Shown here: in pieces, positions 2,925-22,438 of the stretch
Position numbering within the stretch: position 1 is the stretch's first letter
Layout: every line of letters begins with the position of its first letter
Source of the DNA: a virus
UHGV virus genome: UHGV-0091505
Length of the DNA: 34,588 nt
Strand: one strand, 5' to 3'
Translations under genes and position numbers: made by a program
Notes under the pieces: generated by a model
Database searches by the model: none
Told to the model about the DNA's origin: nothing
The model's input: only the letters and a program-made list of their open reading frames with translations

Positions 2925-2936
2925 GTGACATGTCAC
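2925..2936. repeat. perfect 12-bp palindrome GTGACATGTCAC (copy 1 of 3)
   Basis: Directly follows an 18-bp GAAA-tetraloop hairpin (AGGCCGC-GAAA-GCGGCCT, 2907-2924) downstream of the antirepressor stop. Confidence 0.6.
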
Positions 2937-2943
2937 GCTCACG

Positions 2944-3084
2944 TTATGACAAGCCTATGTACCCTGCTACACCAGATAATATCAAAATAGCTGCAACAGC
3001 AAATTCGCCATCGTCAATGATACATTTACGGTTCATAACGCCAAGTGCAACAAGCGCAAACACAACAAGAATAAAAGCAATCAT
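2944..3084 (-). CDS. small hydrophobic two-segment membrane protein (46 aa), not in the supplied ORF track
   Basis: Hand translation: MIAFILVVFALVALGVMNRKCIIDDGEFAVAAILILSGVAGYIGLS; ATG 10 nt after the stop of the upstream 824-aa gene, same strand. Confidence 0.3.
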   Translation of the reverse strand: MIAFILVVFALVALGVMNRKCIIDDGEFAVAAILILSGVAGYIGLS

Positions 3085-3093
3085 TTCTCATCC

Positions 3094-5568
3094 TTATTGC
3101 GGAGTGACATCCTGTGGTCGCCACCAGTATGTCTGGTTAAACTCTTTCTTCGAACGTTGCTCCATTTTACGCAAATAACCTGGTGAAAAATACTCCTGCA
3201 TCTGGTTAAAGATCATGTGATCGAGAGCCGCCTTTAAGTACCAGAGATTCGCACCTGGCATCAGACCTTTCCCCAGCTTAACCAGATCACCACCAGTCTG
3301 CTCATTCTTCCCTTCCACAGCATTTAACGGTATGCCCTGAGCAATCTTCACTACGTCATCAACCAGGCCAGCTACCGGGCCAAGCATCGACGCCAGCGCG
3401 CCGCTTCCGTACCTAGTGTGATCTGACAATAAAAAGTCACCGTAAAGGCCAAGACCACCACCTTTCAGTAGAGCACCAAGCCAAAATTTAGCAGCATCTT
3501 CTCCTGTCATCTCGCGAGGATTACGACCAGACGCAAGGTCGTTAAGTTGCTGCGACAAAGCGCCAAGAATGGTCGTACTGGCAATAAACGTCGCAATATA
3601 TGCCGCACGCCCACCAGCAGACGGCATACCCATAGCGCGTGACCAGTGACGCATAACCACCGAGATAGGGAACGATTTAAACAGGAAAACACTTCTCGTT
3701 AATTCACCTTTCCATGTCCCACGCTGAATACCAGAACCGGTTATCAGTTGCTCACGTGCGCCAGGTGTAATAACAGCCATATCAACTTCTTCAGTTACGG
3801 CACCGAGCAGTTTACGCATTGCCTCAAATTTCACGCGTTCAGGCTCACCAAGATGTTTAACTACTGAATCAGGGATACGCATAATGCTTTCCGGTGTTAG
3901 CATCGTATTATTACCGTTCCCCCAGTCCTCCTGTTGCGCCAGCTTCCATACACTCCAGTCTGTGTCAGTAATCCCTTTACTTTTCAGGATACGAAAATCA
4001 GAGTCATCGAGGCTACGAAGGTCTGGTGTCCGTGACACTACTTCTCCCAGGCTTCCCATCATGGTTACGCCATAGGCGCGCTTGTGCGCATCTGACCATG
4101 CTGTAAGCCCACTGGCACGCATTACCGCCGTTGCCGCCCAACGAGACACAGACGGCCCCATATTATCCATCGCCCAGCGGTTAACGCTGCCAAGTAGAGA
4201 TTCCATCGCCAGACCAGCGCGGCGCGCCCGCGCAAGCTCAGTACGGTTCGTTGGGTCCATAGCTTCAAGCTGGTTGCGGAATAACTGGTTCATTGGAAGG
4301 TTGGTCACCTTCGCAGACAGATACATGGTTCCAAGATCAGAGAACGATGACAGCAACGCGGATCCGAGTCTGCTGGCAACCAGCCAGTTGCGGATATTGT
4401 CAGACCATCGCGCGATGTGAGGATTCGCAACAGGCTGTGTCTTTCCGGAAATAAAGTTGTACAGATTCTCTGTGTTGTTCGCCAGCCGCTCGACTTTACC
4501 GGTTTTACTCGGGTTAGCTGTTGCCGTTTCTGCCTTCACCTGATCAAGAAGGGAACGGAAAACATGATCGGGGTTTGGGCCATATGTTTCCACCAGAGCA
4601 ATATCTTTACTGATCCCTTCCAGGTGACCGACCATGATTTCCCATAGAGAGCGATCGCCATAAAGTTGCTGATATTGCAGATAGGAATCTGCATCTTTGA
4701 AATGTATCTGTCGTGATGCATTACCACGGTTAGCACGTGCACCGGAAATTCGCATTCCGGTATCAGTAAGCTTATTCAGCCCACCAGTAGCGATCGTGTT
4801 ATAAGCCTCTCCAAGAAATGCAGACAACTCGACATCGTTCATCAGTTGTCCATCGGCTCGGGTATAATATTTGCGATCCAGCTTACCTATAACATCGCTA
4901 ACCCATTTATCTTTTGATACCGCCCCAACCTTTCCCATAGAATGATGTTGAGGGATCCCCCAGTTTTCGAGATAGCCAATGTCCCCACCAGCATCATTAA
5001 ACCGGCGGCGCAGTAGCTCTGTCACTTCTCTCCACGCCTTAGCACCTTTTCTTGCTTTAGCATTGCCAGTATTTTGCCCTCGCATTTCATATACCAGGTC
5101 ACGCACGCCCGCTTCATCTTCAAACAGACCAAAAAAGCGAGGATCAACTGCTTCGAATGCCTCCTGCAATTGACTCAATGCATAATCACGGGTGGCTTTT
5201 GTTCTGGATTCAACAGAGAGGAAATTCGATTTACCGTCTGCATTAAAAGCAATAGTACGGTTAAGAGCGCCAAGTTTCCCATCAGCCCCTTGATAGCTAT
5301 TGATAAATTTATCCAATCTCTGACGTGCGGCTATAGTGAGGGCCACACGACGTTTCTTTAATACCGCTTCTCGCTGTAATTCTTCAGATGCCAATTGTGC
5401 TGCACGATATAGCCGCTCTGATTCGGAAAGTTGTCTCCATGACATCGGGTCATCACGAGCAATGGAGCGCATATTTCGATAAATGCGGTCTTCAATGTTC
5501 TGTATTTCTCGCGCCGTTAACGTGCGCTGCGCCGCCTGCTGAACCGCTTGTATACATTCCTGTCTCAT
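3094..5568 (-). CDS. internal virion / ejection protein (large, gp16-like position)
   Basis: 824-aa ORF in the podovirus core-protein block between the tail tubular genes and the tail fibre; glycine-rich hydrophobic stretch near C-terminus; assignment by position and size. Confidence 0.5.
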   Translation of the reverse strand: MRQECIQAVQQAAQRTLTAREIQNIEDRIYRNMRSIARDDPMSWRQLSESERLYRAAQLASEELQREAVLKKRRVALTIAARQRLDKFINSYQGADGKLGALNRTIAFNADGKSNFLSVESRTKATRDYALSQLQEAFEAVDPRFFGLFEDEAGVRDLVYEMRGQNTGNAKARKGAKAWREVTELLRRRFNDAGGDIGYLENWGIPQHHSMGKVGAVSKDKWVSDVIGKLDRKYYTRADGQLMNDVELSAFLGEAYNTIATGGLNKLTDTGMRISGARANRGNASRQIHFKDADSYLQYQQLYGDRSLWEIMVGHLEGISKDIALVETYGPNPDHVFRSLLDQVKAETATANPSKTGKVERLANNTENLYNFISGKTQPVANPHIARWSDNIRNWLVASRLGSALLSSFSDLGTMYLSAKVTNLPMNQLFRNQLEAMDPTNRTELARARRAGLAMESLLGSVNRWAMDNMGPSVSRWAATAVMRASGLTAWSDAHKRAYGVTMMGSLGEVVSRTPDLRSLDDSDFRILKSKGITDTDWSVWKLAQQEDWGNGNNTMLTPESIMRIPDSVVKHLGEPERVKFEAMRKLLGAVTEEVDMAVITPGAREQLITGSGIQRGTWKGELTRSVFLFKSFPISVVMRHWSRAMGMPSAGGRAAYIATFIASTTILGALSQQLNDLASGRNPREMTGEDAAKFWLGALLKGGGLGLYGDFLLSDHTRYGSGALASMLGPVAGLVDDVVKIAQGIPLNAVEGKNEQTGGDLVKLGKGLMPGANLWYLKAALDHMIFNQMQEYFSPGYLRKMEQRSKKEFNQTYWWRPQDVTPQ

Positions 5569-5573
5569 TTAAT

Positions 5574-7376
5574 TTAACCTCTCAAGAAACACGCCACAGC
5601 GACATCAAACAGGCTAGAATCCTGTATTGCCTGCTCACTTTCCCTGTTCGCTTCATCCAGTACTTCACGCGCACTGCGCGATTGTGGATTACCATCATCA
5701 TCCAGCACGGTGATTATCATGTCAGGTGATTCAAGCAGCGAGTCTTCAGCTATACGCAGATCAATATCTCCTGCCGGATCTGCCATCATTTTTTGTTCTG
5801 TCTGTTGCAATATCTTACCGGGCTCAAAAGGAGCTACTTCGTCTGGCGTCCTGACCTCTGCTGTTTTATAGAATGAAACAGCCTGAGCATTAAGTTCACT
5901 TTCTGCCTGCTGTCGTCGTGCCAGTTCTGCTCGAGCTTCAAAAAACTGACCTCCAGGCTCGTGCGGCGCCAACGCGTTACGGGAAAATTCCAGGCGTTCT
6001 TGTGCCTGCCGGATTCGTTGGTCAATATCGCGAATTCTGGCCTGTTTATCTGATCGAGCACGAGACAAAGCTTTACCGCTACCAGTTGGCTCTTCTGCAA
6101 GAATTTGTGCGCGCTGTTCAGTGAGATTGTCGATAATTCGTTGGCTATTAGCGATTTCAGACTGGTAAACCTGTCTATCGCCACGCGACAAAAGCTGCGC
6201 GGCCTGTTCTTCAAGCAACCGATTTTCTATAGCGCGCGCCGTTACTCCATCATCTACAGATGACAGAGCCTCATTAACTGCCTGAGACAGCAGACTCTTG
6301 CGTCCAGGAATTTCACTGAAAGATGCAGACTCAACAATGCTGGCAACGTCTACAGGTCTCCCCTGGCTAACATCAGACATAGCTTTTCGCAGAGCCTGAA
6401 TGTGAGAATTGCGCGAAAGCACGTTGATCGGCACGCCGGGCGCAATATCAATTTCAGCATGATGAGCGGCATTCGCCGCCAGTGCAGCATCAACATCAAC
6501 TGGTGAAAAATTTGGTGCGCTTGTAGACTCGCCGCGAGAGTTCATAAATCTGCCGACACCACCAAACGCTACCCCAAGAACAGCATCAATAGCAATTGCC
6601 TGTCGATCCAACACATCATACTGGTTAGCCATTTCGCTATAGCCACCATCACGAAGAGTTTTTGCAGTAAGCCCACGCTGTGCCATACCGAACGCAATAT
6701 TTGTACCTGCGGCATAGGCAATATCTGGCGTTGCACGTACTGCTGTTGCTGCGGCGCGTCGCACTGAACTTTCACCCGTCCGCGCAAGCTGGGCCGCCAC
6801 ACCTTCCGCCAGCGCACCACCAGCACGTAACCCGAGGCTCATAGGGATCAGTGTTCCGGCACCAGCAGTAATACCCTGCACTAATCCCGCTTCCTGCGCC
6901 GTCCTGAAATCAACACCCTGAGCGGACAGGCGCTCAAATTCAGAGAATCCCTGAAGAGAGGTAACTGCGGCTGCGCCACCAATCGGCCCTGCTAATGCTG
7001 AACCGACAACAGCCTGTCCGCCCATATCGAACAACCCATAAAGAACCTGCCCGGCGGTTCCGGTTGTCGCGGCATCAGGCGTCAACCGCTTAACCTGCTG
7101 CTCTGCTAGTTTTCTCTGCTCGGCAATGTATGAAACTGAAGTATCATTGAACGAGGTGTTTTCGTTAACAAACTGAGCAATCGGGGATACGATTTTATCC
7201 ATTCCTGCCCATAGCAACTGGTCTGGCTTTGCCACCAGCCCGGAGTACAAACCAGACAATGCCGCCCCTACAGCATTGTCGAAAAAACCAACATCGCTGT
7301 TAAAGCCCGCTGGATTTGATGCTGCTTCGTCAAGCTGCTGATTCTGGTTTACTGGATTAAGGCCAAAGTAACTCAT
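5574..7376 (-). CDS. internal virion protein (Gly/Ala-rich, membrane-interacting)
   Basis: 600-aa ORF, translationally coupled to neighbours; long Gly/Ala-rich segments typical of ejection proteins. Confidence 0.5.
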   Translation of the reverse strand: MSYFGLNPVNQNQQLDEAASNPAGFNSDVGFFDNAVGAALSGLYSGLVAKPDQLLWAGMDKIVSPIAQFVNENTSFNDTSVSYIAEQRKLAEQQVKRLTPDAATTGTAGQVLYGLFDMGGQAVVGSALAGPIGGAAAVTSLQGFSEFERLSAQGVDFRTAQEAGLVQGITAGAGTLIPMSLGLRAGGALAEGVAAQLARTGESSVRRAAATAVRATPDIAYAAGTNIAFGMAQRGLTAKTLRDGGYSEMANQYDVLDRQAIAIDAVLGVAFGGVGRFMNSRGESTSAPNFSPVDVDAALAANAAHHAEIDIAPGVPINVLSRNSHIQALRKAMSDVSQGRPVDVASIVESASFSEIPGRKSLLSQAVNEALSSVDDGVTARAIENRLLEEQAAQLLSRGDRQVYQSEIANSQRIIDNLTEQRAQILAEEPTGSGKALSRARSDKQARIRDIDQRIRQAQERLEFSRNALAPHEPGGQFFEARAELARRQQAESELNAQAVSFYKTAEVRTPDEVAPFEPGKILQQTEQKMMADPAGDIDLRIAEDSLLESPDMIITVLDDDGNPQSRSAREVLDEANRESEQAIQDSSLFDVAVACFLRG

Positions 7377-9886
7377 TGCGGAATATCTCCGGAGAATCTC
7401 TGACGCTTCTGTGTCAGATCAAGAACAACAGGAGAACCATCATCTTTCAGCAGATAACCAGTACCAAGTTTCACCAGATACTGACTATCGCCGTAACTTT
7501 GCAAACCATACTGACCAGGCGGTGTTTTTATCCCGGTGCCGACAACTTGTTCATTCCAAGCCTGATTAACCTGCTTATCGAATTGCTCTGCAGACATTCC
7601 CCACGGCAAAAGGACATTCCCCATTCCGTTATAGTCATGCACGCCACCTGTAGCTACGTTAACAGCCTGTTTCCAGATATCAGTGTCAATTTCGCCTGAT
7701 ATCACGCCTTTTTTCGCCATCACACCAGCGTAATAGTCCTTTGCGATCTCGTATGCCATTGATGCCCCCTGAGCATCACCAGCAAATGCATCCTTCACCA
7801 TGTCAGAAAACTCAAGGCGAAGATCAGCATCTTTAGGCATCGGAATACCTTTCGCATCATCAGTACCTTTACGAGCCGCCGCGCCAGCAAGAATTGTCTG
7901 CGCAGCGGTTTCAGGAGACACGGAAACATCCGGATTAAACCAGTTTTTTTCTGCCAAAATACCACCAGGCTTGTCCATCAGTATCCCGGCAACGGCAGCA
8001 GATGGAGCGTTGGCACTGATCTGCTGTAGTGCTGACATATACACCTGCCCACCACCAGTGCTCTGCCTGATGGTATCGAGATATGCTGCCTGTTGGGAAA
8101 CTGGAGCATCACGAAAGAAAACACCGATCTGATTGGCCTCGTCTTTGGAAAAGAACGTCAGTGGAGTGCCATATGACTTAGCAAGGTCACTGACCTGAGC
8201 GGCACGCAAGGCAACGCTCTGTCCAAAGTTATCCTTATTGCTCATGTCGATAGGCTTTGCCTGTCCGGAGGCAAGAGAGAACTGCACAGGATCCGACTGC
8301 CGCTGCTTTATCACCTGATTTGCAGCCGAAACAACGTTGTCATAAAGAGCTGCACGAGACGCATAACCCTCCCCTGTCTCACCAGTATCCGGACGTAATT
8401 GCTCAACATATGCGGTAATGCTGCTTGTCGGCATGTTGCGGAAAGAGCCTATATACTGTCCGGCGATCTGCGTATTTCTGAACTCGGTATATCGCAGGTT
8501 TCCTTCTCTGACGCCATAAGCTGCAATAAAATCAGCCTCACCAGGTGGATTAGGAAATTCAACGCCACGCATATACGCAGCCGTCGCATCGCGAACCTGG
8601 CTGTCAATCATCGTTTTATATTCAGCCTGCTGCTGCCGACGCAGTTGATCCGCCTGTCGCATAAAACTTGCCTGCGCCTCAGGAGATGCCGCATCGAATG
8701 CTGCATTACCGGTATAGCGTTTGGTGTTGGTTGGAATTGTTGATAAACCAAGTGCTGCACTGACACCAGCAGTTAACTGCTGATCACTGTATGGCTGACT
8801 ACCGTTCTCATGATGGATAATGGCTGCACAAAGCGCCTTCAGGGTATCAGGATTTGATGCATCGAGAGGCTCATCAGCAGAAACGCCAAGTTGTTCGCAC
8901 ACTGCTTTGATATACGACATAGTGTCATTTTTATCAGTAGGCGGTGCCCAGCGATTAATTATCTCGCTGACGGTATCGATACCCTGCCGCTGATACGACA
9001 TCAGGTTACGCCCTAATGCACGAATCCCGTGCTCAGGTGTTTCGAATTTAGCAAATCGACCATCATCACCGGTCTGGCCTACCCACGGATTAGTTTTGCT
9101 GTATTCGAGATTTCCTGGGTTATTGTTGCGTATGCCACGGGCACGCTCGGAAGAGTCACTATCTGCTACAGCACGGCGAGCTCCAGCAGCAGTATCACTT
9201 AACTCGCCATTACTTTGGATGAATGCGGTCGCATTGTTTGCCGACCACTGGGACAATGCGGCATCAGCAACCTTCTCTTTAAACTCGATTTTCTTGGCCT
9301 GGATTTGCTCGTCGCTCCAGCCATGCGCAATGCCGTAATCCTCAATTTGCTGGAAAGTTTGCTTATTAGCCAATACGTATGCGGCGTTGTCGCCATACAA
9401 TGCTGCGGCATTTTTACCATTGTTCAGCAGCGTCGCCTGAAACTGGCCTTCTTCGTAGGCATTTATTTGCCCTATCTCGTGCCGCCCGGCCTGCGTAGTG
9501 AACTGAATGCGCTGCTGCTGAGCCTGCTGCATGAAAGCATTACGAGCCTGTTCATCCGGCAGCGACATAGCCAGTTGTTCGACCTGAGCATCAAACTGCT
9601 GCGTATACTCCTGACCTTTTCCAATAGCATTTTTCCCTTTCAGGTTAAGCAAACCTGTTTCAGGGTTATTCAGCAGATCGCTGCTTATCTGGCTTAAGCT
9701 AAGAGAAGCATCCTGAGCCATAGCAACATTCGCGCGCTGTTTTGCCTGCGCAATAATACCTGCATATTGCTCTGCAACATCGCCAAGTACATCACCGACA
9801 TTTGGTGTCTGAAACGATGAGAATCCCTGCGTCGAAATCCCTCTGCTCTGAACCTGACGGCCCGATGTTGTTGGTACAACTGGCAT
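7373..9886 (-). CDS. internal virion protein (gp15-like position)
   Basis: 837-aa ORF in the core-protein block; contains a conserved-looking segment GIRNNNPGNLEYSKTNPWVGQ..FAKFETPEHGIRALGRNL of unknown function. Confidence 0.5.
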   Translation of the reverse strand: MPVVPTTSGRQVQSRGISTQGFSSFQTPNVGDVLGDVAEQYAGIIAQAKQRANVAMAQDASLSLSQISSDLLNNPETGLLNLKGKNAIGKGQEYTQQFDAQVEQLAMSLPDEQARNAFMQQAQQQRIQFTTQAGRHEIGQINAYEEGQFQATLLNNGKNAAALYGDNAAYVLANKQTFQQIEDYGIAHGWSDEQIQAKKIEFKEKVADAALSQWSANNATAFIQSNGELSDTAAGARRAVADSDSSERARGIRNNNPGNLEYSKTNPWVGQTGDDGRFAKFETPEHGIRALGRNLMSYQRQGIDTVSEIINRWAPPTDKNDTMSYIKAVCEQLGVSADEPLDASNPDTLKALCAAIIHHENGSQPYSDQQLTAGVSAALGLSTIPTNTKRYTGNAAFDAASPEAQASFMRQADQLRRQQQAEYKTMIDSQVRDATAAYMRGVEFPNPPGEADFIAAYGVREGNLRYTEFRNTQIAGQYIGSFRNMPTSSITAYVEQLRPDTGETGEGYASRAALYDNVVSAANQVIKQRQSDPVQFSLASGQAKPIDMSNKDNFGQSVALRAAQVSDLAKSYGTPLTFFSKDEANQIGVFFRDAPVSQQAAYLDTIRQSTGGGQVYMSALQQISANAPSAAVAGILMDKPGGILAEKNWFNPDVSVSPETAAQTILAGAAARKGTDDAKGIPMPKDADLRLEFSDMVKDAFAGDAQGASMAYEIAKDYYAGVMAKKGVISGEIDTDIWKQAVNVATGGVHDYNGMGNVLLPWGMSAEQFDKQVNQAWNEQVVGTGIKTPPGQYGLQSYGDSQYLVKLGTGYLLKDDGSPVVLDLTQKRQRFSGDIPQ

Positions 9887-9898
9887 CTTATTATCCCC

Positions 9899-14301: not shown

Positions 14302-14317
14302 ATACACTCCTGCAATA

Positions 14318-14335
14318 AAGGGGCCGAAGCCCCTT
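14318..14335 (-). terminator. GC-rich hairpin with UUCG tetraloop (attenuator/terminator-like) in the head gene block
   Basis: On minus strand AAGGGGC-UUCG-GCCCCUU between the 114-aa and 109-aa genes; only a short U tract follows. Confidence 0.35.
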
Positions 14336-14351
14336 GTCTGATCCGCGAGGC

Positions 14352-14696: not shown

Positions 14697-14697
14697 C

Positions 14698-15135: not shown

Positions 15136-15186
15136 CTTCTTTCTCCATTAGTGGGTCTGTTACGACCCACAGGTTAATAACAGGCG

Positions 15187-16173
15187 TTACACCACGCGGG
15201 CTTCTGTTTCCAGAAGCGCATCAGTTTCACGGATTGGTACACCACGGAATGAAGTCCACCACTCGCCTTCTGTCTCTTTTACGCTGATCGCCAGAGATGT
15301 TTTCTCCAGAGATTGCAGATCAAGAGCCTGGCCTACAGTGCGGTTCATGTAGAACACCGGGCGGCCCATGCCACGATTTGGAATGCGATGCAGTGCTTTA
15401 ACCATCAATTTCGCAATATTTGCGGCAGAGGAAGGTTCTGAAAGATTGCTGACATCGATGTTTGCAATGCGAACAACATAACGCCAGTCACGCAGAGCAA
15501 GCCCGTTGTCCCATTTGTAATGGGTACGGTAGCCTTCGTACTTGCCGCCATTCGCATCTTCCAGTGTCACCTGGCCTTTATCTTCCATCTGAATGCCAGC
15601 CTTCTGCCCTTTCGGGAAGATGCCATGCACGGTGTTTTCGCCCCACACCACTAACCAGATTGAGGTGTTATCTGTACCCGTGCCACCAGCATCAATGATG
15701 TTCTGAGCATTACCTGCAGACAGGCTGGAATAGCGGGAGGACAGTCCCATAAACTGCTGAGGGTTAACGCTGGAATCACCATAAAACAGCGTCTGCGCCA
15801 TCTGCTGATTCATCGCTTCAATAAATGCGCGGTCTTCAGACAGGCGGAATTCGGCGGTATTACCGTTCAGATCAGCCAGTGACTTATCGACTTCAGCATA
15901 GGTTTCCAGCATGCCCACGGAATCGGTTACCTGCACTGTGGTTGATTTGCTTGGCTGTACGCCATAGTTCAGCAAACGCCAGGTAGCTGAAGGTAAACCA
16001 GAACGAATGGTGGTTCGGTGTCCGGTAGGAAGGTTACCTTCGACAAAAGGCATATCCTGAAGGATCGGGTTAGTTTGACCGAGAAGCTCGATAATCTTAT
16101 CGACTTTCCCGTTTGGATCGACGCGCTTACCCCAGTCAGCCAGCGTTAGCGCAGTTAAGCCTTTAACAGCCAT
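15187..16173 (-). CDS. major capsid protein
   Basis: About 328 aa following the scaffold gene; probable start is the third codon ATG (16173), which has proper spacing from GAGAGGA; size and order match T7/epsilon15-type capsid genes. Confidence 0.75.
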   Translation of the reverse strand: MAVKGLTALTLADWGKRVDPNGKVDKIIELLGQTNPILQDMPFVEGNLPTGHRTTIRSGLPSATWRLLNYGVQPSKSTTVQVTDSVGMLETYAEVDKSLADLNGNTAEFRLSEDRAFIEAMNQQMAQTLFYGDSSVNPQQFMGLSSRYSSLSAGNAQNIIDAGGTGTDNTSIWLVVWGENTVHGIFPKGQKAGIQMEDKGQVTLEDANGGKYEGYRTHYKWDNGLALRDWRYVVRIANIDVSNLSEPSSAANIAKLMVKALHRIPNRGMGRPVFYMNRTVGQALDLQSLEKTSLAISVKETEGEWWTSFRGVPIRETDALLETEARVV

Positions 16174-16187
16174 TGTCATTTCCTCTC

Positions 16188-16889
16188 TTATTTGCCATAG
16201 AGCACTTCGGCCGCACTACGCTGGCCTTCATTACCACCGGTGACCATGCCATCTTCAGACATCGCCTTTCCGATTTTCACGAACGTTTTGACCAGATCAG
16301 GGTGATTACCCAGCCCGGTGGCGTTCAGATACTCTTTGAGTTCAGGTGTCCCGAACTGGTCAAGCGCACGCTGTGCGGCGCTAAGGTTAGAAATCAACTT
16401 GTCGCCACCGATTTCTTTGTCAGCTTTTACATCCGCAGCCCACTGCTCGGTTGTTTTCTGCCAGGCTTCTGCCTGGCGCTGCTGAACACCTGCCAGAATC
16501 TTCGGGTAAGCATCAACCAGCTTTTGCGCTTGCTCGTTGGTCAGGTTAAGTTCTCGCGCCACCGGCTCGAATTCCTTCAACGCTTCTGTATCCAGCTCTA
16601 CGCCTTCGGCAGCCTGAAACTCGTACTTCTCAGGCGCCCCCTCCGGTTTATCGCCGTCCTTTTTTTCACCCTGCTTATCGCTTTCAGGCTTTTTGTCATC
16701 AGCAGGTTTATCGCCATCAGCAACAGGTTGTGTCTTATCACCTTCCTGTTGTGATGGATCACCAACTGGAGCAGGGTTATCACCTGCAGGCGCTGACGGT
16801 TCTGACGCAGCCGGAGCTGCTCCACCATCGACTGGTTGCTCATTGCAAAGACGGCGATACAGCAAACGCTCAAATAAATTCATGATCAC
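16188..16889 (-). CDS. scaffolding protein
   Basis: 233 aa, acidic Pro/Asp/Lys-rich low-complexity N-half and helical C-half, located between portal and capsid. Confidence 0.6.
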   Translation of the reverse strand: MIMNLFERLLYRRLCNEQPVDGGAAPAASEPSAPAGDNPAPVGDPSQQEGDKTQPVADGDKPADDKKPESDKQGEKKDGDKPEGAPEKYEFQAAEGVELDTEALKEFEPVARELNLTNEQAQKLVDAYPKILAGVQQRQAEAWQKTTEQWAADVKADKEIGGDKLISNLSAAQRALDQFGTPELKEYLNATGLGNHPDLVKTFVKIGKAMSEDGMVTGGNEGQRSAAEVLYGK

Positions 16890-17182
16890 TCCTGTTCACT
16901 GGCCTCTTTGGCCATCTTCAAATACTGTTCAGGGCAATGCGCCATAACGCGCTGAAACAGTTCCAGCGCCAGATTGCGTTGCCCCTCATTAAATGCCATT
17001 GCCATAGCGTCCATCGGTGAGATAGCGGAAAACACCAGGCCTTTCTCCAGCACAGACCAGACAACGCGACGCCCCTGTTCACTGCTCATGACAAAGCGAA
17101 TGTCATCAATTTCACGCTGTGCCATGTCACGTTGCTTACGGGCGTTTTCTTCTTTCAGTTGATCATCTTCGTATTCTGTCAT
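16886..17182 (-). CDS. hypothetical protein (between portal and scaffold)
   Basis: 98-aa ORF translationally coupled to the portal and scaffold genes. Confidence 0.45.
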   Translation of the reverse strand: MTEYEDDQLKEENARKQRDMAQREIDDIRFVMSSEQGRRVVWSVLEKGLVFSAISPMDAMAMAFNEGQRNLALELFQRVMAHCPEQYLKMAKEASEQE

Positions 17183-18858
17183 TGTGATTGCCCACCCTGA
17201 CCACTAACTGCATTCGCCATAGCTGACAAAACACTCGGATCAGAAGTTTTAGCTTCGCTTAGCGTCTTGGCACCCTGTGCCGCCGCCATCCCCATCGCCA
17301 TCATTTGTTGCTGCTGTTGCTGCTGTGCCCGTTGCTGGCGAGCCTGCTCAACCTGTTCCTGCGGAACAATGATGGTTGGAGACACTCCGGACATATCAGC
17401 GAATGCATCGATCGCCTGATCAACGTTGAGTTTGTCGAGAGCTTCTGGTTTCGCTTGCGCAAGTTGACCAATGAAGTTGACCGTAGACGCCAGACTGGAC
17501 AGGCCGATAGACTTCTGCGCCTGAGCCATGACGGAAATGTATTCGACCTTCAGTGGCATACCCTCCATCGCGTCAGGCGGTGGCGGCAGCATGTTTTTAC
17601 GCACCATCATCGAGAAAGCGCGGTCAATGAGAGGATTAAGACATTCGTCGTTCAGACGCTCCAGAACCGGCCCCAACATCAGAAGTTTTTCTTCTTTCAT
17701 TTCGATCACCGCTTCAACAGGCATCGAGCGGGTATTGATGTTCTGCAACATCATGAACAGATCGACAAAGTAGGCGCTGTTAATGATTTGACGAGTGTCC
17801 TGAATGTCTGCCACCAAATCTGCTGTACTGGGGTTAACCAGATAAGCAGGCCTGAAACCATCCTGACCAGTAATCTGATCGATATACGTGATGTCGCCAG
17901 GAAGAAGGGATGCGCGCTGATTCTTGAGGGAAGTCGGAGCAACCATCGGCGGATTGGTGGCTTTATCAATCAACTGTGACTTACGCTTCTGGAGAAGCTG
18001 CAATGCCTTAACAGGTCCAAGCGCCAGCATACCCGGGCATGATGATCCATAAACATCTTCGCCGTTAACTTCCCAGCGCGGAGCCATAATTGGAAACTCA
18101 TCGAATCCGGACTCACGCAACAACTTGTCGTTATCGCCACCAACCTCGTAATAAACCGATTTGAATGGCTTGTTCTTGCTATCCAGCTTCGATGTATCGC
18201 GGTCAATGTTCGGGTAAACCGAATGCATCACTTCAATCCACTTCTCGTAGGTGCCGCTTTCCCACATACTTTTTACGGATTCGCTGACGTTATTTAGCCC
18301 GAACTCCTGAACAAGCTGACGAACAGTCATAGAGAACTTGCGAAAACAGGTGTCCACACTGCCACGAGGTGAGTTAGCCAGGTAGTAACTGCCTATCGGG
18401 AATGGCATTGTGCGAATGATGTCCTCGTCATCCTCCAGCACTGCCATTGCACCAGTGCTGTATGTGCCGAGGCTTCCGTATAACTGCGGCAGCGACTGAT
18501 AGAGATTCGACTTATTGAACATATCGTTCATGCGGTTCTGCACCGCCTCAAGCCACAACTTAACAGGGCCATAATCCATCATTTCAGGATCTGGCGTAGC
18601 CAGGCGAAACCACGGACGCGCGGGGCTTGTGATGCCTGACATCATGCCGCTGGCGAGAGTGCGCGCCGCCATAGTCCCGGTCGAATCAATAATGCGTGTA
18701 TTGCGTCGATCGTTACGGTTGACCTCAGAAGTCAGAAAGCGGGAACCACGCGGGTTGATGTAATCACTCAACTCGCGCCAGTGCGGCTCGAACGACTGAC
18801 GCTCGCTTTCAAGTTGTGCGAACTGTTTGTTCAATCGCTCTTTAGTTGTTTCCGCCAT
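17179..18858 (-). CDS. portal protein
   Basis: 559 aa, position immediately after the terminase block, Gln-rich C-terminal tail; SD CGGAGTCATTGA before ATG. Confidence 0.8.
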   Translation of the reverse strand: MAETTKERLNKQFAQLESERQSFEPHWRELSDYINPRGSRFLTSEVNRNDRRNTRIIDSTGTMAARTLASGMMSGITSPARPWFRLATPDPEMMDYGPVKLWLEAVQNRMNDMFNKSNLYQSLPQLYGSLGTYSTGAMAVLEDDEDIIRTMPFPIGSYYLANSPRGSVDTCFRKFSMTVRQLVQEFGLNNVSESVKSMWESGTYEKWIEVMHSVYPNIDRDTSKLDSKNKPFKSVYYEVGGDNDKLLRESGFDEFPIMAPRWEVNGEDVYGSSCPGMLALGPVKALQLLQKRKSQLIDKATNPPMVAPTSLKNQRASLLPGDITYIDQITGQDGFRPAYLVNPSTADLVADIQDTRQIINSAYFVDLFMMLQNINTRSMPVEAVIEMKEEKLLMLGPVLERLNDECLNPLIDRAFSMMVRKNMLPPPPDAMEGMPLKVEYISVMAQAQKSIGLSSLASTVNFIGQLAQAKPEALDKLNVDQAIDAFADMSGVSPTIIVPQEQVEQARQQRAQQQQQQQMMAMGMAAAQGAKTLSEAKTSDPSVLSAMANAVSGQGGQSQ

Positions 18859-18872
18859 TTCAATGACTCCGG

Positions 18873-19079
18873 TTACTGACCAAGCAGCGTTTTACCGCTG
18901 GTATTAGCGGTTGATGTGTCGCCCTGAGAACCGGTAAGCAGCGTAGAACTACGACCAGCAGCAGCGCGACGGCGACGTGTTTCTTCGTCGCGGGCATCAA
19001 CAACTGCGGCATCCTGCTCCTGTGGTGCTGCCTGAACTTCTGGTGTTGCAGGCACTGATGGTGAGCTACCCATGCACAT
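18873..19079 (-). CDS. small hypothetical protein upstream of portal
   Basis: 68-aa polar Arg-rich ORF; its start is preceded by the same CGGAGTCATTGA sequence found before the portal ATG. Confidence 0.35.
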   Translation of the reverse strand: MCMGSSPSVPATPEVQAAPQEQDAAVVDARDEETRRRRAAAGRSSTLLTGSQGDTSTANTSGKTLLGQ

Positions 19080-19169
19080 ATCAATGACTCCGTACGCAAT
19101 TAAATTATTACCAATTTAACCATATATGATTTATTTATCGTAGATAGTTGACATTTAACGCACAAATTA

Positions 19170-19184
19170 TTACCTTTCAGGTAG
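19170..19184. promoter_or_regulatory. operator-like site TTACCTTTCAGGTAG
   Basis: TTACC-N5-GGTAG; 14/14 identical to the core of the site at 1531-1545; a TTGACA hexamer lies 16 nt upstream. Confidence 0.3.
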
Positions 19185-19506
19185 CAAAGGGTTCATTCCG
19201 GTTATTAACCTGACTGGCTTGTCGTTAAATTGAACAGGTGGAGTGAGCTTTTATTTTGAGCAGTACGGCGTATGGCACATGCGTCGTTAGCGGTCTGGTG
19301 ACGTTAAAGGGGTTACCTTTTCCCCTAGCTCAGGCAACAAACCAGGTAGCCGGAATGTGCAAGCCCCGTTCATATCGTCGGACCGAGGACTCACCACCCT
19401 GGCGATTCGGTGTGACGCCTCGGAAGAGACGAGGGTACAACGATGAGAGCATTTATGGAGCCGCGACAAAGTGTGGCGCCTTAACAGGCTAAGTGCTCTC
19501 AGCGTT

Positions 19507-19583
19507 GTGGCATTAGCTCAGTTGGACAGAGCAACCGCCTTCTAAGCGGTTGGTCGCAGGTTCGAATCCTGCATGCCACGCCA
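19507..19583 (+). tRNA. tRNA-Arg (anticodon UCU), argU-like
   Basis: 77 nt cloverleaf folded by hand: acceptor GTGGCAT/ATGCCAC, D-arm GCTC/GAGC, anticodon stem ACCGC/GCGGT with loop CTTCTAA, T-arm GCAGG-TTCGAAT-CCTGC, discriminator G and encoded CCA. Confidence 0.85.
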
Positions 19584-19785
19584 GAATCACGCCTAAGGAC
19601 CGTGATGCCAGAAGTTCCAGGGGCTTGGCGGTGATGGTTTCCCTTGAAGGACTATCACCGCCCTTTTTACAGCAGGACGCCATTGCGATGACTTCATGCT
19701 GTAAACCAGTACAGCCACGGAAGGCATAACTCATTGCTTCCAGTTCGCCCGGTTCGCCGGGCATTTTTTAAGGTGAGATTAGACT

Positions 19786-20157
19786 ATGAGTGACAAAGAC
19801 ATTGAATCTGAAATTCAGGCTAAAGGTTTAGCCGCGCCGCGCGTTACGCCAGACCATATCGAGAGCATTATTGCTCAGGAGGCATATTTCACAGCAGAAG
19901 ATGGTGTCTTTGGCGTAGCCATAAAAGCGAAACATACTGGCGAAGAGGTAAACTACCAGCCGCACGAATCACTTTCTCTGCTGACGTTCTGCGTTCTGGT
20001 GCTGCGCAACGGCTTCACCGTCACCGGAGAGAGCGCCTGTGCAAGCCCGGAAAACTTTGATGCGGAAATTGGTCGGAAGATTGCCCGGCAGAATGCTGTA
20101 AACAAAATCTGGATGCTTGAAGGTTACTTGCTGAAGCAGAAGTTAAGCGAGCAATAA
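19786..20157 (+). CDS. Gp49-like phage protein (N4 gp49 / Sf6 gp66-type, function unknown)
   Basis: 123-aa ORF with SD AAGGTGAG; C-terminal pattern GESACASPENFDAEIGRKIARQNAVNKIWMLEGY recalled as this family; opposite strand to flanking terminase and portal. Confidence 0.5.
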   Translation: MSDKDIESEIQAKGLAAPRVTPDHIESIIAQEAYFTAEDGVFGVAIKAKHTGEEVNYQPHESLSLLTFCVLVLRNGFTVTGESACASPENFDAEIGRKIARQNAVNKIWMLEGYLLKQKLSEQ

Positions 20158-20161
20158 CACC

Positions 20162-20173
20162 GTGACATGTCAC
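20162..20173. repeat. perfect 12-bp palindrome GTGACATGTCAC (copy 2 of 3)
   Basis: 5 nt after the Gp49-like stop, in the convergent gap with terL; followed by a weak hairpin and a T-rich run. Confidence 0.6.
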
Positions 20174-20247
20174 AAACAGCCAGCTCATAGGGTGGCTTTG
20201 TTTTATCCTCACCAGAGGATATCAGCAGCATTATCCCCTCCAGCGGA

Positions 20248-21723
20248 TTAAGCATAGGGATCGTAATCTGTGATGGCCTTGCCTTGCTGGTTCTGCTGCC
20301 CGGGAATTCGCAGACGCTTCGACACAGGGAAAGCAAACGTCAGCAGTAGCGCATCGCCTTTACCCGGCGAACGCCCAAGACGCTCTTTGATATCTTCCTT
20401 CGGTTCGATAACGATTTTACCGTCCACACGAACTTTGTACTCTGCCGCCGACAGGTCGTCTGCAGTTTCCTGGTCATCCAGCATGCCGCCCAGCCTCAGC
20501 CATGTCTTACATGAGTTGAACATCTCCCCACGCTTGTTAAGCATCTGCGGGTCAGTGGACGCACCGCCGAACGGAACAAGTTGCCATGTACGTCCCCAGC
20601 CATCACCGATTGACTTCAAACCGGTTCCGTAACCGAAGTCGATGAACACCGCGTCAGCCTGATACTGGTCTTCAAAGTCAGCGATACGCTTCGCCATAAT
20701 CAGATCGTCGGTAGTCTTGTTGCCAGTCCACAGCACCTTACTGTGTAGCCCCTGCCGCAGGTATATCACCGCGTCATCAACGCCTGAATATGCCGGGTCA
20801 ACACCGATTATCACCGGAGCATGCGCCACCTGCGCAGCGGTCACCACCCGTTTCATTGCCTCATCAGTAAGACCGGTAGGGATAAACTGCAATTCAGATG
20901 CATCAGGGAATATGCCGCGCACACGGATTTTAACGAAGTCGCTGTCTTCCCCGTAGTCATCAACCCATTTCTGCAACTGCTGTTTGTTAGTGCCTTCCAC
21001 CGTCCGGCTGTCAATCTGCGCAGTTTTCCAGCGGTGTTTATACTTGCGGAAACATTCACGGAATCGCCCGGTGTTACGTGTAGGGTTTCCGAACGCCACC
21101 CAGATAATCTCAGTGTCTTCGTCCGTAAGCGCACCCTCAGCAACTTCCCACACCAGATCCGCAATGTTCGACGCTTCATCGAATACCACGATGATGCGTT
21201 TGCGCTCGTTGTGTAGTCCGGCGAATGCCTCAGTGTTGTGCTCAGACCAGGGGATTGCGTCAGCTCGCCACCGCTTGTCGTGCCCAGGGTCATTGCTGTA
21301 CATCGCGGTAGCGGTACAGGTAAACCAGTCTTTCGTGATAGCAAGGTTCGACCACTTGATAATTTCCGGCCAGGTCTTCGTTCGTAGCTGGTTGTCGGTG
21401 TTGGCAGTCACCACGACCTTACAATCCTCGCAAGTGGACATGCCCCAGTTGATCAGCATTGAGATGAATGCGGATTTACCAATACCGTGACCAGAAGCGC
21501 GTGCCAGCATAAGCGGCTGATAGCGCGTCTCTGGATTCTGCAGGTGATCACGTATCTCTCGGAACGCATCAGCCTGCCACTGACGTGGGCCGGTGGCATG
21601 TGCCAGTTCAGTCCCCTCTTCCCCCCACGGGAACGCATAGAGGGCATAGCCAAGCGGATCGTGAGTGAACCCTGCAATATCCTCGATCAACTGCTCTTCA
21701 GGAGATAACGCTGTATCTGTCAC
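20248..21723 (-). CDS. terminase large subunit
   Basis: 491 aa; Walker A-like ARASGHGIGKS, ATPase plus nuclease-sized domains; directly downstream of terS with overlapping stop/start. Confidence 0.9.
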   Translation of the reverse strand: MTDTALSPEEQLIEDIAGFTHDPLGYALYAFPWGEEGTELAHATGPRQWQADAFREIRDHLQNPETRYQPLMLARASGHGIGKSAFISMLINWGMSTCEDCKVVVTANTDNQLRTKTWPEIIKWSNLAITKDWFTCTATAMYSNDPGHDKRWRADAIPWSEHNTEAFAGLHNERKRIIVVFDEASNIADLVWEVAEGALTDEDTEIIWVAFGNPTRNTGRFRECFRKYKHRWKTAQIDSRTVEGTNKQQLQKWVDDYGEDSDFVKIRVRGIFPDASELQFIPTGLTDEAMKRVVTAAQVAHAPVIIGVDPAYSGVDDAVIYLRQGLHSKVLWTGNKTTDDLIMAKRIADFEDQYQADAVFIDFGYGTGLKSIGDGWGRTWQLVPFGGASTDPQMLNKRGEMFNSCKTWLRLGGMLDDQETADDLSAAEYKVRVDGKIVIEPKEDIKERLGRSPGKGDALLLTFAFPVSKRLRIPGQQNQQGKAITDYDPYA

Positions 21724-22316
21724 TGATTACCATCCTGACGTTCTTTGAGTCGCTTCCTGGCTGCCGCTATGCGATCAGCAATTGTCACATTCACATTAAC
21801 ATCCAAGCGTTCTTTGAATGCATTGACATCGACGTGCTTGCCAATCAGTTCGAGGTTCTTCACCTTGTCAGGCCATTTAATTTTTTTGAGGATTGTCTCT
21901 ATCGAATCCTCGTTCATGTTCATGATGGTCGATGACAGATCAAAGCCACTAAGCGTAGTGCGCCAGATTTTCGGCCACTCACGGATTGGTTTAAGGCTCC
22001 CATCGTCGTTGAGGATGTCGATCACGTCCATCTGGTCGATCTCCACCAGGCGCATGAGAACGTAATCAGCACTGACACGCATTCGTTTGTTGCGCTCCTC
22101 CATCAGCTCGGCAATCCGTTTCTGAATGCGTTCATCGCGCATCATGACACTGGCTTTAACTGCCGCTGTATTTGGGGAGAATCCTGCGTTAATCGCTGCC
22201 TGAGTCTGGTTTTCAGGCGTTTTGATGTATGACTGGCAATAAGCCTCCTGCATTGCTGTGAGCGGCTTAAATTGCGTTGATTTGCGTTTATAGGTTTTAG
22301 GTTCAGCAGGCATCAT
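21720..22316 (-). CDS. terminase small subunit
   Basis: Probable start at the ATG pair 22316/22313 (MMPAEPK..); the longer track ORF extends through an operator repeat translating to TITTTVTITTVV; DNA-binding type N-terminus. Confidence 0.8.
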   Translation of the reverse strand: MMPAEPKTYKRKSTQFKPLTAMQEAYCQSYIKTPENQTQAAINAGFSPNTAAVKASVMMRDERIQKRIAELMEERNKRMRVSADYVLMRLVEIDQMDVIDILNDDGSLKPIREWPKIWRTTLSGFDLSSTIMNMNEDSIETILKKIKWPDKVKNLELIGKHVDVNAFKERLDVNVNVTIADRIAAARKRLKERQDGNQ

Positions 22317-22333
22317 AACCACCGTGGTAATAG

Positions 22334-22348
22334 TTACCGTTGTGGTAA
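22334..22348. promoter_or_regulatory. operator palindrome TTACCGTTGTGGTAA upstream of terS
   Basis: Perfect TTACC-N5-GGTAA 18 nt upstream of the terS start; preceded on the minus strand by TACTAT (-10-like). Confidence 0.4.
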
Positions 22349-22354
22349 TAGTAC

Positions 22355-22385
22355 CATGCAAAATAAAGCCGCCATAGTTGGCGGC
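22355..22385 (-). terminator. intrinsic terminator between nin-like block and terminase genes
   Basis: On minus strand GCCGCC-AACTAT-GGCGGC followed by TTTATTTTG. Confidence 0.5.
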
Positions 22386-22426
22386 AGTATTCAAAACCCA
22401 TCAAATTTATCATGCATAATCTACTC

Positions 22427-22438
22427 GTGACATGTCAC
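22427..22438. repeat. perfect 12-bp palindrome GTGACATGTCAC (copy 3 of 3)
   Basis: Overlaps the stop codon of the 112-aa gene, upstream of the terminator and terS. Confidence 0.6.

What the first reader, a model, noticed from the sequence alone, without database searches (positions are those of the whole stretch)
2925..22438. Three copies of the perfect palindrome GTGACATGTCAC at module junctions
Identical 12-bp palindromes (with shared flank CGTGACATGTCACA in two copies) occur at 2925-2936 after the antirepressor, 20162-20173 after the Gp49-like gene and 22427-22438 at the end of the last nin-block gene before terS. All lie at gene 3-prime ends next to hairpins and bracket the two plus-strand insertions and the terminase block. 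A 12-bp exact palindrome three times in 34.6 kb is unlikely by chance; it could be a dimeric-protein binding site, a packaging-related site or a recombination linker marking module boundaries.
Basis: seen in the sequence. Interest (0 to 1): 0.55.

Follow-up and report, generated by a model that had tools for sequence, protein, structure and literature searches.

The report
Phage regulator's repeated DNA-binding palindrome
The three identical palindromes are real and are most likely docking sites for a small, uncharacterised DNA-binding protein whose own gene ends inside one of them; the same protein-and-site pair recurs in many unrelated temperate phages.

Summary
GTGACATGTCAC occurs exactly three times (2925, 20162, 22427), against 0 in 100 shuffles. 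All three share the 14-mer CGTGACATGTCACA; copy 1 is inverted.

The window is an epsilon15/phiV10-like (Uetakevirus) prophage with its late genes on the minus strand. The same palindrome sits at syntenic positions in epsilon15, SPC32H, Tyrion, phiV10 and TL-2011b.

It generalises to YGTGAC-N2-GTCACR. This motif is tied to one small protein family: window 22435-22773(-), also known as epsilon15 gp49, phiV10 p55, N15 gp46 and PHROG 536. The family has no Pfam match.
- Homologues were retrieved by protein similarity alone. In 66 of 75 unique contexts the exact motif lies at the gene's stop codon, usually with the TGA inside it.
- In 1.17 Mb around diverse homologues the motif occurs 121 times, against 1.1 expected. 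Other spacings occur 0-1 times.

The protein models as a ribbon-helix-helix fold followed by a four-cysteine segment.

Best reading: these are operators for this protein. In this phage they sit at operon ends beside intrinsic terminators, probably as transcriptional roadblocks or insulators. That last step is inferred. Packaging-site and recombination-linker readings are not supported.

The parts
2925..2936 (.). Palindrome copy 1 (14-mer TGTGACATGTCACG). On the minus strand it follows the stop of the 46-aa membrane-protein gene by 7 nt and directly abuts the terminator hairpin.
   Evidence: Syntenic exact copies: phiV10 19493, epsilon15 19517 (overlapping the gp18 TGA), SPC32H 19634, Tyrion 20377, TL-2011b 32282.
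20162..20173 (.). Palindrome copy 2 (CGTGACATGTCACA). It lies 4 nt after the stop of the Gp49/Sf6-gp66-like gene and 4 nt before a hairpin with a T-run, on the side of the hairpin that faces away from TerL.
   Evidence: Present in 51 of 75 unique post-TerL contexts; mutated to GTGATATGTCAC in L191 and L167.
22427..22438 (.). Palindrome copy 3 (CGTGACATGTCACA on the + strand). It contains the TGA stop (22435-22437, minus strand) of the ribbon-helix-helix protein gene.
   Evidence: An exact motif lies at the stop codon in 66 of 75 unique homologue contexts, 61 of them at offset -1.
22435..22773 (-). Gene for the 112-aa putative binding protein (here called p55; epsilon15 gp49, phiV10 p55, N15 gp46 family, PHROG 536). 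It has a basic N-terminal helix, a ribbon-helix-helix core and a four-cysteine C-terminal segment.
2907..2924 (-). Intrinsic terminator (AGGCCGC-TTTC-GCGGCCT followed by TGTTTTTAAC) for the late structural operon, immediately 3' of copy 1.
20176..20206 (+). Hairpin plus T-run (TTTGTTTTAT) that terminates the plus-strand accessory gene. It has only a weak T-run in the TerL direction.
22368..22385 (-). Intrinsic terminator (GCCGCC-AACT-ATGGCGGC followed by TTTATTTT) between the p55 gene and terS, about 40 nt downstream of copy 3.
17119..17130 (.). One-mismatch copy (GTGCCATGTCAC) inside a structural gene; whether it is functional is uncertain.
   Evidence: Conserved in phiV10 (5306) and TL-2011b (16873) but absent from epsilon15, SPC32H and Tyrion.

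Best explanation
The three palindromes are operators, with full site YGTGAC-N2-GTCACR. The 112-aa protein encoded at 22435-22773(-) binds them, most likely as a symmetric dimer. I call this protein p55 after its phiV10 homologue. It is a ribbon-helix-helix (RHH) protein with a basic N-terminal helix and a four-cysteine tail.

p55 is the last gene of the early-right operon, so it should appear after induction or infection.

**Shown:**
- the sequence motif and its strict 2-bp spacing;
- its tight linkage to this protein family across very different phages;
- the predicted RHH fold;
- the position of each copy relative to genes and terminators.

**Inferred:**
- direct binding of p55 to the motif;
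- the mechanism that follows.

**Proposed mechanism in this phage.** The sites are not at recognisable promoters. They lie at the 3' ends of three transcription units, beside intrinsic terminators. I propose that bound p55 is a roadblock or insulator for RNA polymerase.
- At its own stop codon it would limit read-through from the early operon towards terS. It could also feed back on its own mRNA, as LacI does at O3 (this comparison is from my own knowledge).
- At the two convergent junctions the site abuts the side of the hairpin that lacks a T-run. There it would stop the polymerase arriving from the direction in which the terminator is weak.
For: **Non-random and conserved.**
- 3 copies against 0 in 100 shuffles.
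- Exact syntenic copies persist in genomes only about 80% identical, while the flanks change.

**Linkage to the protein.**
- 79 loci retrieved by protein homology (1.17 Mb) hold 121 GTGACNNGTCAC, against 1.1 expected. Spacings N0, N1, N3 and N4 and the everted arrangement give 0-1.
- 66 of 75 unique stop-codon contexts have the exact motif. The last sense codon always ends in G (GTG, GCG, CCG, CTG or ATG). Where the stop is TAA or TAG, the motif follows 2-9 nt later, so it is not a by-product of coding.

**Independent lineages.**
- N15 has 3 copies of GTGACTGGTCAC, one at the gp46 stop.
- A Yersinia P2-like phage has GTGACGCGTCAC at the homologue's stop.
- Vibrio phage K308 has 3 copies, one 19 nt upstream of the terS ATG.
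- Aeromonas phage 13AhydR10PP (30% identical protein) has 3 copies of a shifted variant, GTGACCGGACAC. One lies between a -10 element and the Shine-Dalgarno sequence of the homologue's own gene.
- Two distant RHH open reading frames in bacterial contigs L296 and L378 carry the palindrome just upstream of the gene; L296 also has it over its TGA stop.

**Duplex DNA rather than a hairpin.**
- All ten half-site bases are invariant, with no compensatory changes, and the centre is free.
- The Aeromonas variant breaks self-complementarity.
- The RNA hairpin is worth only -2.7 kcal/mol.

**Protein fold.**
- A single RHH dimer can specify a 12-bp site, as shown for ArtA (PMC2777438).

**Roadblock idea.**
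- No promoter-like signal above chance was found at the sites.
- A terminator lies within 45 nt of 37% of unique motif instances, against 9% of random positions.
- In many lineages the motif lies inside an operon, directly before the next gene's ribosome-binding site.
Against: - No binding experiment exists.
- The terminator association is dominated by related Uetakevirus genomes, so the instances are not independent.
- The post-TerL site is absent or mutated in about a third of relatives, and the phiV10 copy at the p55 stop carries a C-to-T change. Individual sites are therefore dispensable.
- A roadblock placed directly beside an efficient terminator looks redundant.
- A polymerase stalled by the protein would stop before it finishes transcribing the hairpin, so the two elements need not cooperate.
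- Ribbon-helix-helix proteins usually act at promoters, and none is evident at the sites in this window.
Confidence: 0.7

Rival explanations
1. Antitermination loading site. p55 bound at the palindrome just upstream of each terminator modifies the passing polymerase so that it reads through. This would switch on terS-terL and downstream late genes from the early-right transcript, playing a role like that of lambda Q.
For: - The gene sits where lambdoid phages carry Q, last before the late genes, with a terminator about 40 nt after the site and before terS.
- In 34 of 45 terminator-associated instances the motif lies 5' of the terminator on the terminated strand.
- No Q or N homologue was noticed in the phiV10 or epsilon15 annotations.
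Against: - At copy 2 the site is 5' of the terminator only for the accessory gene. Read-through there would produce antisense terL RNA.
- N15 has its own Q (gene 40) as well as gp46.
- In many lineages no terminator follows the site; a ribosome-binding site does.
- I know of no ribbon-helix-helix antiterminator (own knowledge).
- The promoter-like match GTGACA-18-CATGAT is weak and not conserved in epsilon15.
Confidence: 0.1
2. The site is bound by a host protein rather than by the phage protein. One candidate is MatP, whose matS site GTGACRNYGTCAC differs only by one extra central base.
For: - The half-sites are identical to those of matS (consensus string found in PMC6907758).
- The hosts of phages carrying the family listed are Escherichia, Salmonella, Klebsiella, Yersinia, Vibrio and Aeromonas. 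From my own knowledge these belong to the MatP-containing clade.
Against: - The spacing is strictly N2. The 13-bp form occurs once in 1.17 Mb, against 121 occurrences of the 12-bp form.
- The motif follows the phage protein gene to its own stop codon.
- The motif changes together with the protein in Aeromonas.
- It also accompanies distant ribbon-helix-helix genes in L296, a beta-proteobacterial metagenome-assembled genome, and in L378.
- p55 has only about 20 residues before the beta-strand. It therefore lacks the four-helix bundle that, from my own knowledge, MatP uses to bind DNA.
Confidence: 0.05
3. Recombination linker or cassette boundary. The palindrome is the crossover or insertion point at which accessory genes are swapped between phages.
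For: - Sequence on one side of each copy is conserved and the other side varies among relatives.
- Different accessory genes after TerL all end 4-5 nt from the palindrome.
- The p55 gene with its 3' motif is found in many genomic neighbourhoods.
Against: - 12-14 bp is too short for homologous exchange.
- No recombinase or nuclease co-occurs with the motif.
- Only one side of each variable region carries a copy.
- Relatives with other cassettes after TerL lack the motif altogether.
- Operon ends are permissive insertion points regardless of any signal.
Confidence: 0.08
4. Packaging (pac or cos) recognition element for the terminase.
For: - Copies 2 and 3 flank terS-terL.
- Vibrio phage K308 has a copy 19 nt upstream of terS.
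- The phiV10 GenBank record is cut inside the copy at the p55 stop.
Against: - The phiV10 cut simply follows the last gene's stop codon.
- Copy 1 is 19.5 kb from copy 3.
- In N15, with its annotated cos end at bases 1-12, and in P2-like phages, the copies lie far from the packaging sites.
- The post-TerL copy is dispensable.
Confidence: 0.03

Closest known systems
P22 Arc and Mnt, ribbon-helix-helix repressors with operators in the immI region
   Same: Small phage ribbon-helix-helix proteins that bind short symmetric operators. They lie next to an antirepressor module embedded among late genes. The P22 annotation was seen. Here copy 1 is beside a Bro-N antirepressor-like gene, the N15 copy at 28550 lies upstream of the ant operon, and some relatives carry a LexA-box promoter right after the p55 site.
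   Different: - No detectable sequence similarity.
- p55 has an extra basic N-terminal helix and a four-cysteine C-terminal segment.
- The operator is 12-14 bp and probably bound by one dimer.
- In this phage it lies at gene 3' ends beside terminators, not over a promoter.
LacI at the O3/O2 auxiliary operators (roadblock, and operator overlapping the 3' end of the repressor's own gene; own knowledge, Abo et al. 2000)
   Same: An operator overlaps the end of the regulator's own coding sequence, and operators lie inside transcription units where a bound protein can block elongation.
   Different: Unrelated fold. For p55 neither the roadblock nor tagging of truncated product has been shown. This is an analogy of mechanism only.
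MatP-matS (E. coli Ter macrodomain)
   Different: matS is 13 bp (N3), whereas this motif is strictly 12 bp (N2). p55 has no room for MatP's four-helix bundle. The sites are on phage genomes and track a phage gene.
ArtA of plasmid pSK41 (PMC2777438)
   Same: A ribbon-helix-helix regulator in which a single dimer specifies a site of about 12 bp. It has an N-terminal arm and controls several operons of a mobile element.
   Different: Different consensus (ACATGACATG). ArtA's operators lie at promoters. It comes from a Gram-positive plasmid and has no cysteine-rich tail.
Lambda Q with its qut site and the tR' terminator
   Same: The regulator gene lies directly upstream of the late genes, with a site and a terminator immediately after it.
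   Different: No homology to Q. No conserved promoter overlaps the site. There are multiple sites. N15 carries both Q and a p55 homologue.

Membership tests
Ribbon-helix-helix regulator with cognate operator | Beta-alpha-alpha (ribbon-helix-helix) fold in the protein | tested here: met
Ribbon-helix-helix regulator with cognate operator | Short two-fold symmetric DNA site that co-occurs with the protein | tested here: met
   121 observed against 1.1 expected around homologues. The exact motif lies at 66 of 75 stop codons. The spacing is strictly N2. A co-varying variant occurs in the Aeromonas phage.
Ribbon-helix-helix regulator with cognate operator | Physical binding of the protein to the site | not testable with these tools
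   Needs EMSA, footprinting or ChIP.
Ribbon-helix-helix regulator with cognate operator | Operator overlaps or adjoins a promoter (classical repression) | tested here: not met
   In the window only one weak promoter-like match was found (GTGACA-18-CATGAT at copy 3). It is no better than shuffles and is not conserved. The feature is met in distant relatives: Aeromonas phage sites 116 and 2563, and L378.
MatP-matS | 13-bp site GTGACRNYGTCAC | tested here: not met
   All copies have a 2-bp centre. GTGAC-N3-GTCAC occurs 0 times in the window and once in 1.17 Mb.
MatP-matS | Protein with an N-terminal four-helix bundle (own knowledge of the MatP structure) | tested here: not met
   Only about 20 residues precede the beta-strand.
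Intrinsic terminator | Stable GC-rich hairpin followed by a U-run | tested here: not met
   The palindrome alone folds at -2.7 kcal/mol (4 bp) and has no U-run. The real terminators are separate, adjacent hairpins.
Prophage repressor (Rep/CI-type) operators of epsilon15-like phages | Match to the annotated operator type TTACC-N5-GGTAA | tested here: not met
   The epsilon15 'repressor' sites are a different sequence (ATTACC...GGTAAT). The window has 7 such sites elsewhere.
cos/pac packaging site | Unique site at or beside the terminase genes that defines the virion DNA ends | tested here: inconclusive
   Virion ends cannot be tested here. Multiple dispersed copies argue against it, as do copies far from the annotated cos end in N15.
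Lambda Q-type antiterminator system | Protein homologous to a Q family, and a site embedded in the late promoter | tested here: not met
   No Pfam or NCBIfam match to Q families. No conserved promoter lies at the site.

The most novel reading that the evidence does not exclude
The p55 family and YGTGAC-N2-GTCACR would form a previously undescribed transcriptional punctuation system of temperate phages. A ribbon-helix-helix protein binds inside transcription units: at its own stop codon, before the ribosome-binding sites of downstream genes, and on the U-tract-less side of one-directional terminators. There it acts as a programmable roadblock that insulates operons and times the early-to-late switch, possibly also feeding back on its own mRNA by truncating it.
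Probability: 0.25. Interest if true: 0.75.

Novelty: new variant of a known kind. Interest (0 to 1): 0.6.

Why it matters
Epsilon15/phiV10-like phages are used for E. coli O157 and Salmonella typing, biocontrol and reporter phages, yet how they separate early, late and accessory transcription is unknown.

This work makes three things testable:
- It links an unstudied protein family to a precise 14-bp site. The family has no Pfam model and about 190 clusters at 50% identity.
- The same pair occurs in N15-like, P2-like, lambdoid, Vibrio and Aeromonas phages, so one experiment could annotate a regulator across many genomes.
- Operators at a gene's own stop codon and beside terminators are unusual for ribbon-helix-helix proteins. 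If confirmed, this would be a natural example of protein roadblocks used as operon insulators, and a compact part for synthetic biology.

Tried and rejected
- **Promoter reading.** GTGACA resembles a -35 hexamer, but scans found nothing above the shuffle level, and the single match at copy 3 is not conserved in epsilon15.
- **RNA hairpin or anti-terminator pairing.** The hairpin is weak, shows no covariation and has no complementarity to the terminator arms. The Aeromonas variant breaks the symmetry.
- **Prophage repressor operators.** These are a different sequence.
- **phiV10 record start as evidence for a genome end.** The record is simply cut after the last gene's stop codon.
- **Literature.** No paper in the searchable library contains the 12-mer or its variants in a phage context. 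The ZX5 paper's abstract and section headings give no sign of it.
- **P22 NinX.** ZX5 annotates a 'NinX' gene within the region I searched, so I checked P22 NinX. It is unrelated to p55.
- **Q-gene test.** In some lambdoid relatives the motif is embedded in the first codons of Q (MRDMSQ). Chlobot has a p55 homologue but an ordinary Q start, so the link is not obligatory.
- **Negative controls.** Lambda and P22 have no homologue and no motif, but about 0.04 copies are expected per genome, so this adds little.
- **Scan of bacterial genomes for the 14-mer.** It is not a measure of host background.
- **Motif frequency in the E. coli chromosome.** This could not be measured with these tools.
Full report
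**1. Observation**

GTGACATGTCAC occurs at 2925-2936, 20162-20173 and 22427-22438, and nowhere else in the window. None appeared in 100 dinucleotide-preserving shuffles. One 1-mismatch copy lies inside a structural gene at 17119.

All three exact copies carry the same 14-mer, CGTGACATGTCACA. Copy 1 reads as its reverse complement.

**2. What the window is**

The DNA is an epsilon15/phiV10-like (Uetakevirus) prophage, 94-97% identical to phiV10 and the O157 typing phages over the two regions tested.

Late genes run on the minus strand:
- terS 21720-22394 (PF03592);
- TerL 20248-21723;
- structural genes down to 3094;
- a 46-aa membrane-protein gene at 2944-3084.

Two plus-strand accessory blocks point against them:
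- tRNA-Arg plus a Gp49/Sf6-gp66-like gene (19786-20157);
- a Bro-N antirepressor-like block (1514-2878).

These assignments rest.

**3. Anatomy of the three copies**

Each copy lies just after a stop codon, and then comes an intrinsic terminator that has its T-run on that same strand.
- **Copy 1 (minus strand):** membrane-protein stop, 7 nt, palindrome, 0 nt, hairpin 2924-2907, then TGTTTTTAAC.
- **Copy 2 (plus strand):** Gp49-like stop, 4 nt, palindrome, 4 nt, hairpin, then TTTGTTTTAT.
- **Copy 3 (minus strand):** the TGA stop of gene 22435-22773 lies inside the palindrome, and the terminator 22385-22368 follows about 40 nt later, before terS.

At the two convergent junctions the palindrome therefore sits on the side of the hairpin that has no T-run. 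A polymerase coming from that direction meets the hairpin and then the palindrome.

**4. Conservation**

Exact copies lie at the same three positions in epsilon15 (2142, 19517, 39612), SPC32H (2145, 19634, 38629) and Tyrion (2702, 20377, and 41755 across the record end). phiV10 and TL-2011b each have two.

In phiV10 the copy at the p55 stop is split by the ends of the GenBank record and carries one C-to-T change. The epsilon15 flanks differ while the 12-mer is unchanged.

The post-TerL copy is less constant:
- it is present in 51 of 75 unique contexts;
- it is point-mutated (GTGATATGTCAC) in two close relatives;
- it is absent where a different accessory gene follows TerL.

**5. The motif belongs to a protein family**

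Copy 3 overlaps the stop of a 112-aa protein, which I call p55 after its phiV10 homologue. It matches PHROG 536 ('transcriptional regulator') and has no Pfam or NCBIfam match. Homologues occur in 146 phage records from Escherichia, Salmonella, Klebsiella, Yersinia, Vibrio, Aeromonas and others.

Individual genomes:
- **N15 (siphovirus, cos ends).** Three copies of GTGACTGGTCAC, one across the gp46 stop.
- **A Yersinia P2-like myovirus.** GTGACGCGTCAC across the homologue's stop.
- **Vibrio phage K308.** Three copies of GTGAC-NN-GTCAC, one 19 nt before the terS ATG.

A broader test used loci retrieved only by protein similarity:
- GTGACNNGTCAC occurs 121 times in 1.17 Mb, against 1.1 expected. 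Spacings N0, N1, N3 and N4, the everted arrangement and scrambled half-sites give 0-6.
- Of 75 unique stop-codon contexts, 66 carry the exact motif, and 61 of these have the TGA inside it. Two have one mismatch and seven have none; in two of those seven the gene is frameshifted and the motif follows the true end.
- The last sense codon varies (Val, Ala, Pro, Leu, Met) but always ends in G. Where the stop is TAA or TAG, the motif lies 2-9 nt downstream. It is therefore a non-coding signal and not a consequence of the protein sequence.

The centre dinucleotide is free (AT, TG, CT, GT, TT, CG, AC or GG). A symmetrised logo of 158 unique instances adds Y at position -1 and R at +1, giving YGTGAC-N2-GTCACR.

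Lambda and P22 have neither the protein nor the motif.

**6. Distant relatives show classical operator positions**

*Aeromonas phage 13AhydR10PP* has a homologue only 30% identical, and no exact motif. Instead it has three copies of one variant, GTGACCGGACAC.
- Two of them sit between a -10 element and a Shine-Dalgarno sequence.
- One of those lies 14 nt before the homologue's own ATG.
- The variant is no longer self-complementary. This argues for recognition of duplex DNA rather than a hairpin.

*Two small ribbon-helix-helix open reading frames* in bacterial contigs have an N-terminal '...TA-ERQ...R' helix like that of p55.
- L296 is from a beta-proteobacterial metagenome-assembled genome. 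It carries GTGACATGTCAC just upstream of the gene, a second copy inside the gene, and a third across its TGA stop.
- L378 carries the palindrome just upstream of its ribosome-binding site.

**7. The protein**

An alignment of eight homologues shows invariant R8, R13, E32, L36, R43, R47, Y50, E54 and four cysteines: C79, C82, C91 and C99.

The AlphaFold2 model has mean pLDDT 70. It gives a basic helix (5-18), an extended segment (19-29), helices at 30-43 and 52-75, the cysteine region, and a last helix.

The family is small: 188 representatives at 50% identity among 1.84 billion proteins.

A single ribbon-helix-helix dimer can read a 12-bp site, as shown for ArtA (PMC2777438).

**8. Mechanism**

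The best-supported statement is that the palindromes are operators for p55. What binding achieves in this phage is an inference.
- The sites are not at promoters.
- They are too weak to act as RNA hairpins.
- Across lineages the motif is typically inside a transcription unit:
  - at the regulator's stop codon;
  - directly before the next gene's ribosome-binding site (N15 gp47, Chlobot, Vibrio K308, several lambdoid elements);
  - over the first codons of a Q antiterminator gene;
  - or beside terminators.

This pattern fits a protein that blocks elongating RNA polymerase.

In the window it would do three things:
- stop early-right transcription at the end of the p55 gene, before terS;
- stop Bro-N-direction transcripts from running antisense into the late genes;
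- stop terL-direction transcripts from running antisense into the accessory block.

An independent hint that the late units have their own control comes from Rep-type operators (TTACC-N5-GGTAA). One lies between the terminator and the probable terS start, and a shared ACCTGAAAGGTAATA box lies upstream of the next two late units.

I put 0.7 on the binding-site identity and about 0.3 on the roadblock mechanism.

**9. Rivals**

- **Antitermination.** It fits the gene's position and the terminator after copy 3. It does not fit copy 2, nor N15, which has its own Q, nor the many sites followed by ribosome-binding sites.
- **Host MatP.** It shares the half-sites (matS is GTGACRNYGTCAC; PMC6907758). 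But the spacing is strictly one base shorter, and the motif follows the phage gene.
- **Recombination linker.** This describes the location correctly but has no mechanistic support.
- **Packaging.** This is contradicted by copy number and by N15 and the P2-like phage.

**10. Novelty**

I found no description of this motif or of a function for the family. Databases call the protein only a 'transcriptional regulator'.

A ribbon-helix-helix regulator with an operator is a known kind of system. Three things are new:
- the specific protein-site pair;
- its breadth across phage types;
- operators placed at the regulator's own stop codon and against terminators.

I therefore file it as a new variant of a known kind, with interest 0.6.

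Noticed in passing
window 1911, 22334, 25922, 25984, 28315, 29027, 29089: Seven copies of a second palindrome, TTACC-N5-GGTAA. It matches the sites annotated as 'repressor' operators in epsilon15. One copy (22334-22348) lies between the terminator and the probable terS start, and one (1911) lies upstream of the Bro-N gene.
   Followed up: partly
window about 19160-19175 and about 1521-1536 (minus strand): A shared box, ACCTGAAAGGTAATA, plus a second GGTAATA 50-62 nt further on. It lies upstream of the gp3-like gene and of the tail-fibre gene, and may be a late-promoter or operator element marking the 5' ends of late units.
   Followed up: no
window 19507-19583 (+): tRNA-Arg (anticodon TCT). 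It overlaps the 83-aa ORF 19513-19764(-), which phiV10 annotates as hypothetical protein p04, so that ORF may not be a real gene.
   Followed up: no
L001 (phiV10) 39101-39104 joined to 1-8: The GenBank record is linearised inside the palindrome at the p55 stop codon, so that copy cannot be seen in the linear record. It reads GTGACATGTTAC, one C-to-T change.
   Followed up: yes
L075 1238, L116 5267, L125 8188, L257 210: In lambdoid relatives the palindrome is embedded in the first codons of a Q antiterminator gene (ATGCGTGACATGTCACAG, encoding MRDMSQ). L075 and L257 also encode a p55 homologue about 10 kb away. Chlobot has a homologue but an ordinary Q start, MRDIQM.
   Followed up: partly
L280, L281, L286-L288, about 6-60 nt after the motif at the p55 stop: In some Uetakevirus relatives a sigma-70 promoter with a LexA box (TACTGT-N8-ACAGTA) and a small gene of about 85 aa are inserted between the p55 site and terS. 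This may be an SOS-controlled antirepressor-like cassette.
   Followed up: partly
L233, L241, L251, L262 and others, about 15-30 nt after the motif: A conserved near-palindrome, CCTG-N-TGCAGCAGG, follows the p55 site in a clade where the next genes are an AlpA/excisionase-like gene and an integrase.
   Followed up: no
L346 1846-1912, L302 6122-6166 (Sorangium); L365 200-236 (Candidatus Jettenia): Tandem arrays of three to four copies of GTGACATGTCAC at a 22-bp or 18-bp period in unrelated bacterial genomes. Their function is unknown, and no p55 homologue lies within 8 kb.
   Followed up: no
L296 6625-6905; L378 5700-5711: Small ribbon-helix-helix ORFs with an N-terminal motif 'GRPPTG..(A/L)T A.ERQ'. 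They carry the same palindrome just upstream of the gene, and in L296 also inside it and over its stop codon. These are distant cousins of the phage family.
   Followed up: partly
window 17119-17130: A one-mismatch copy (GTGCCATGTCAC) lies inside a structural gene. It is conserved in phiV10 and TL-2011b but not in epsilon15, SPC32H or Tyrion.
   Followed up: partly
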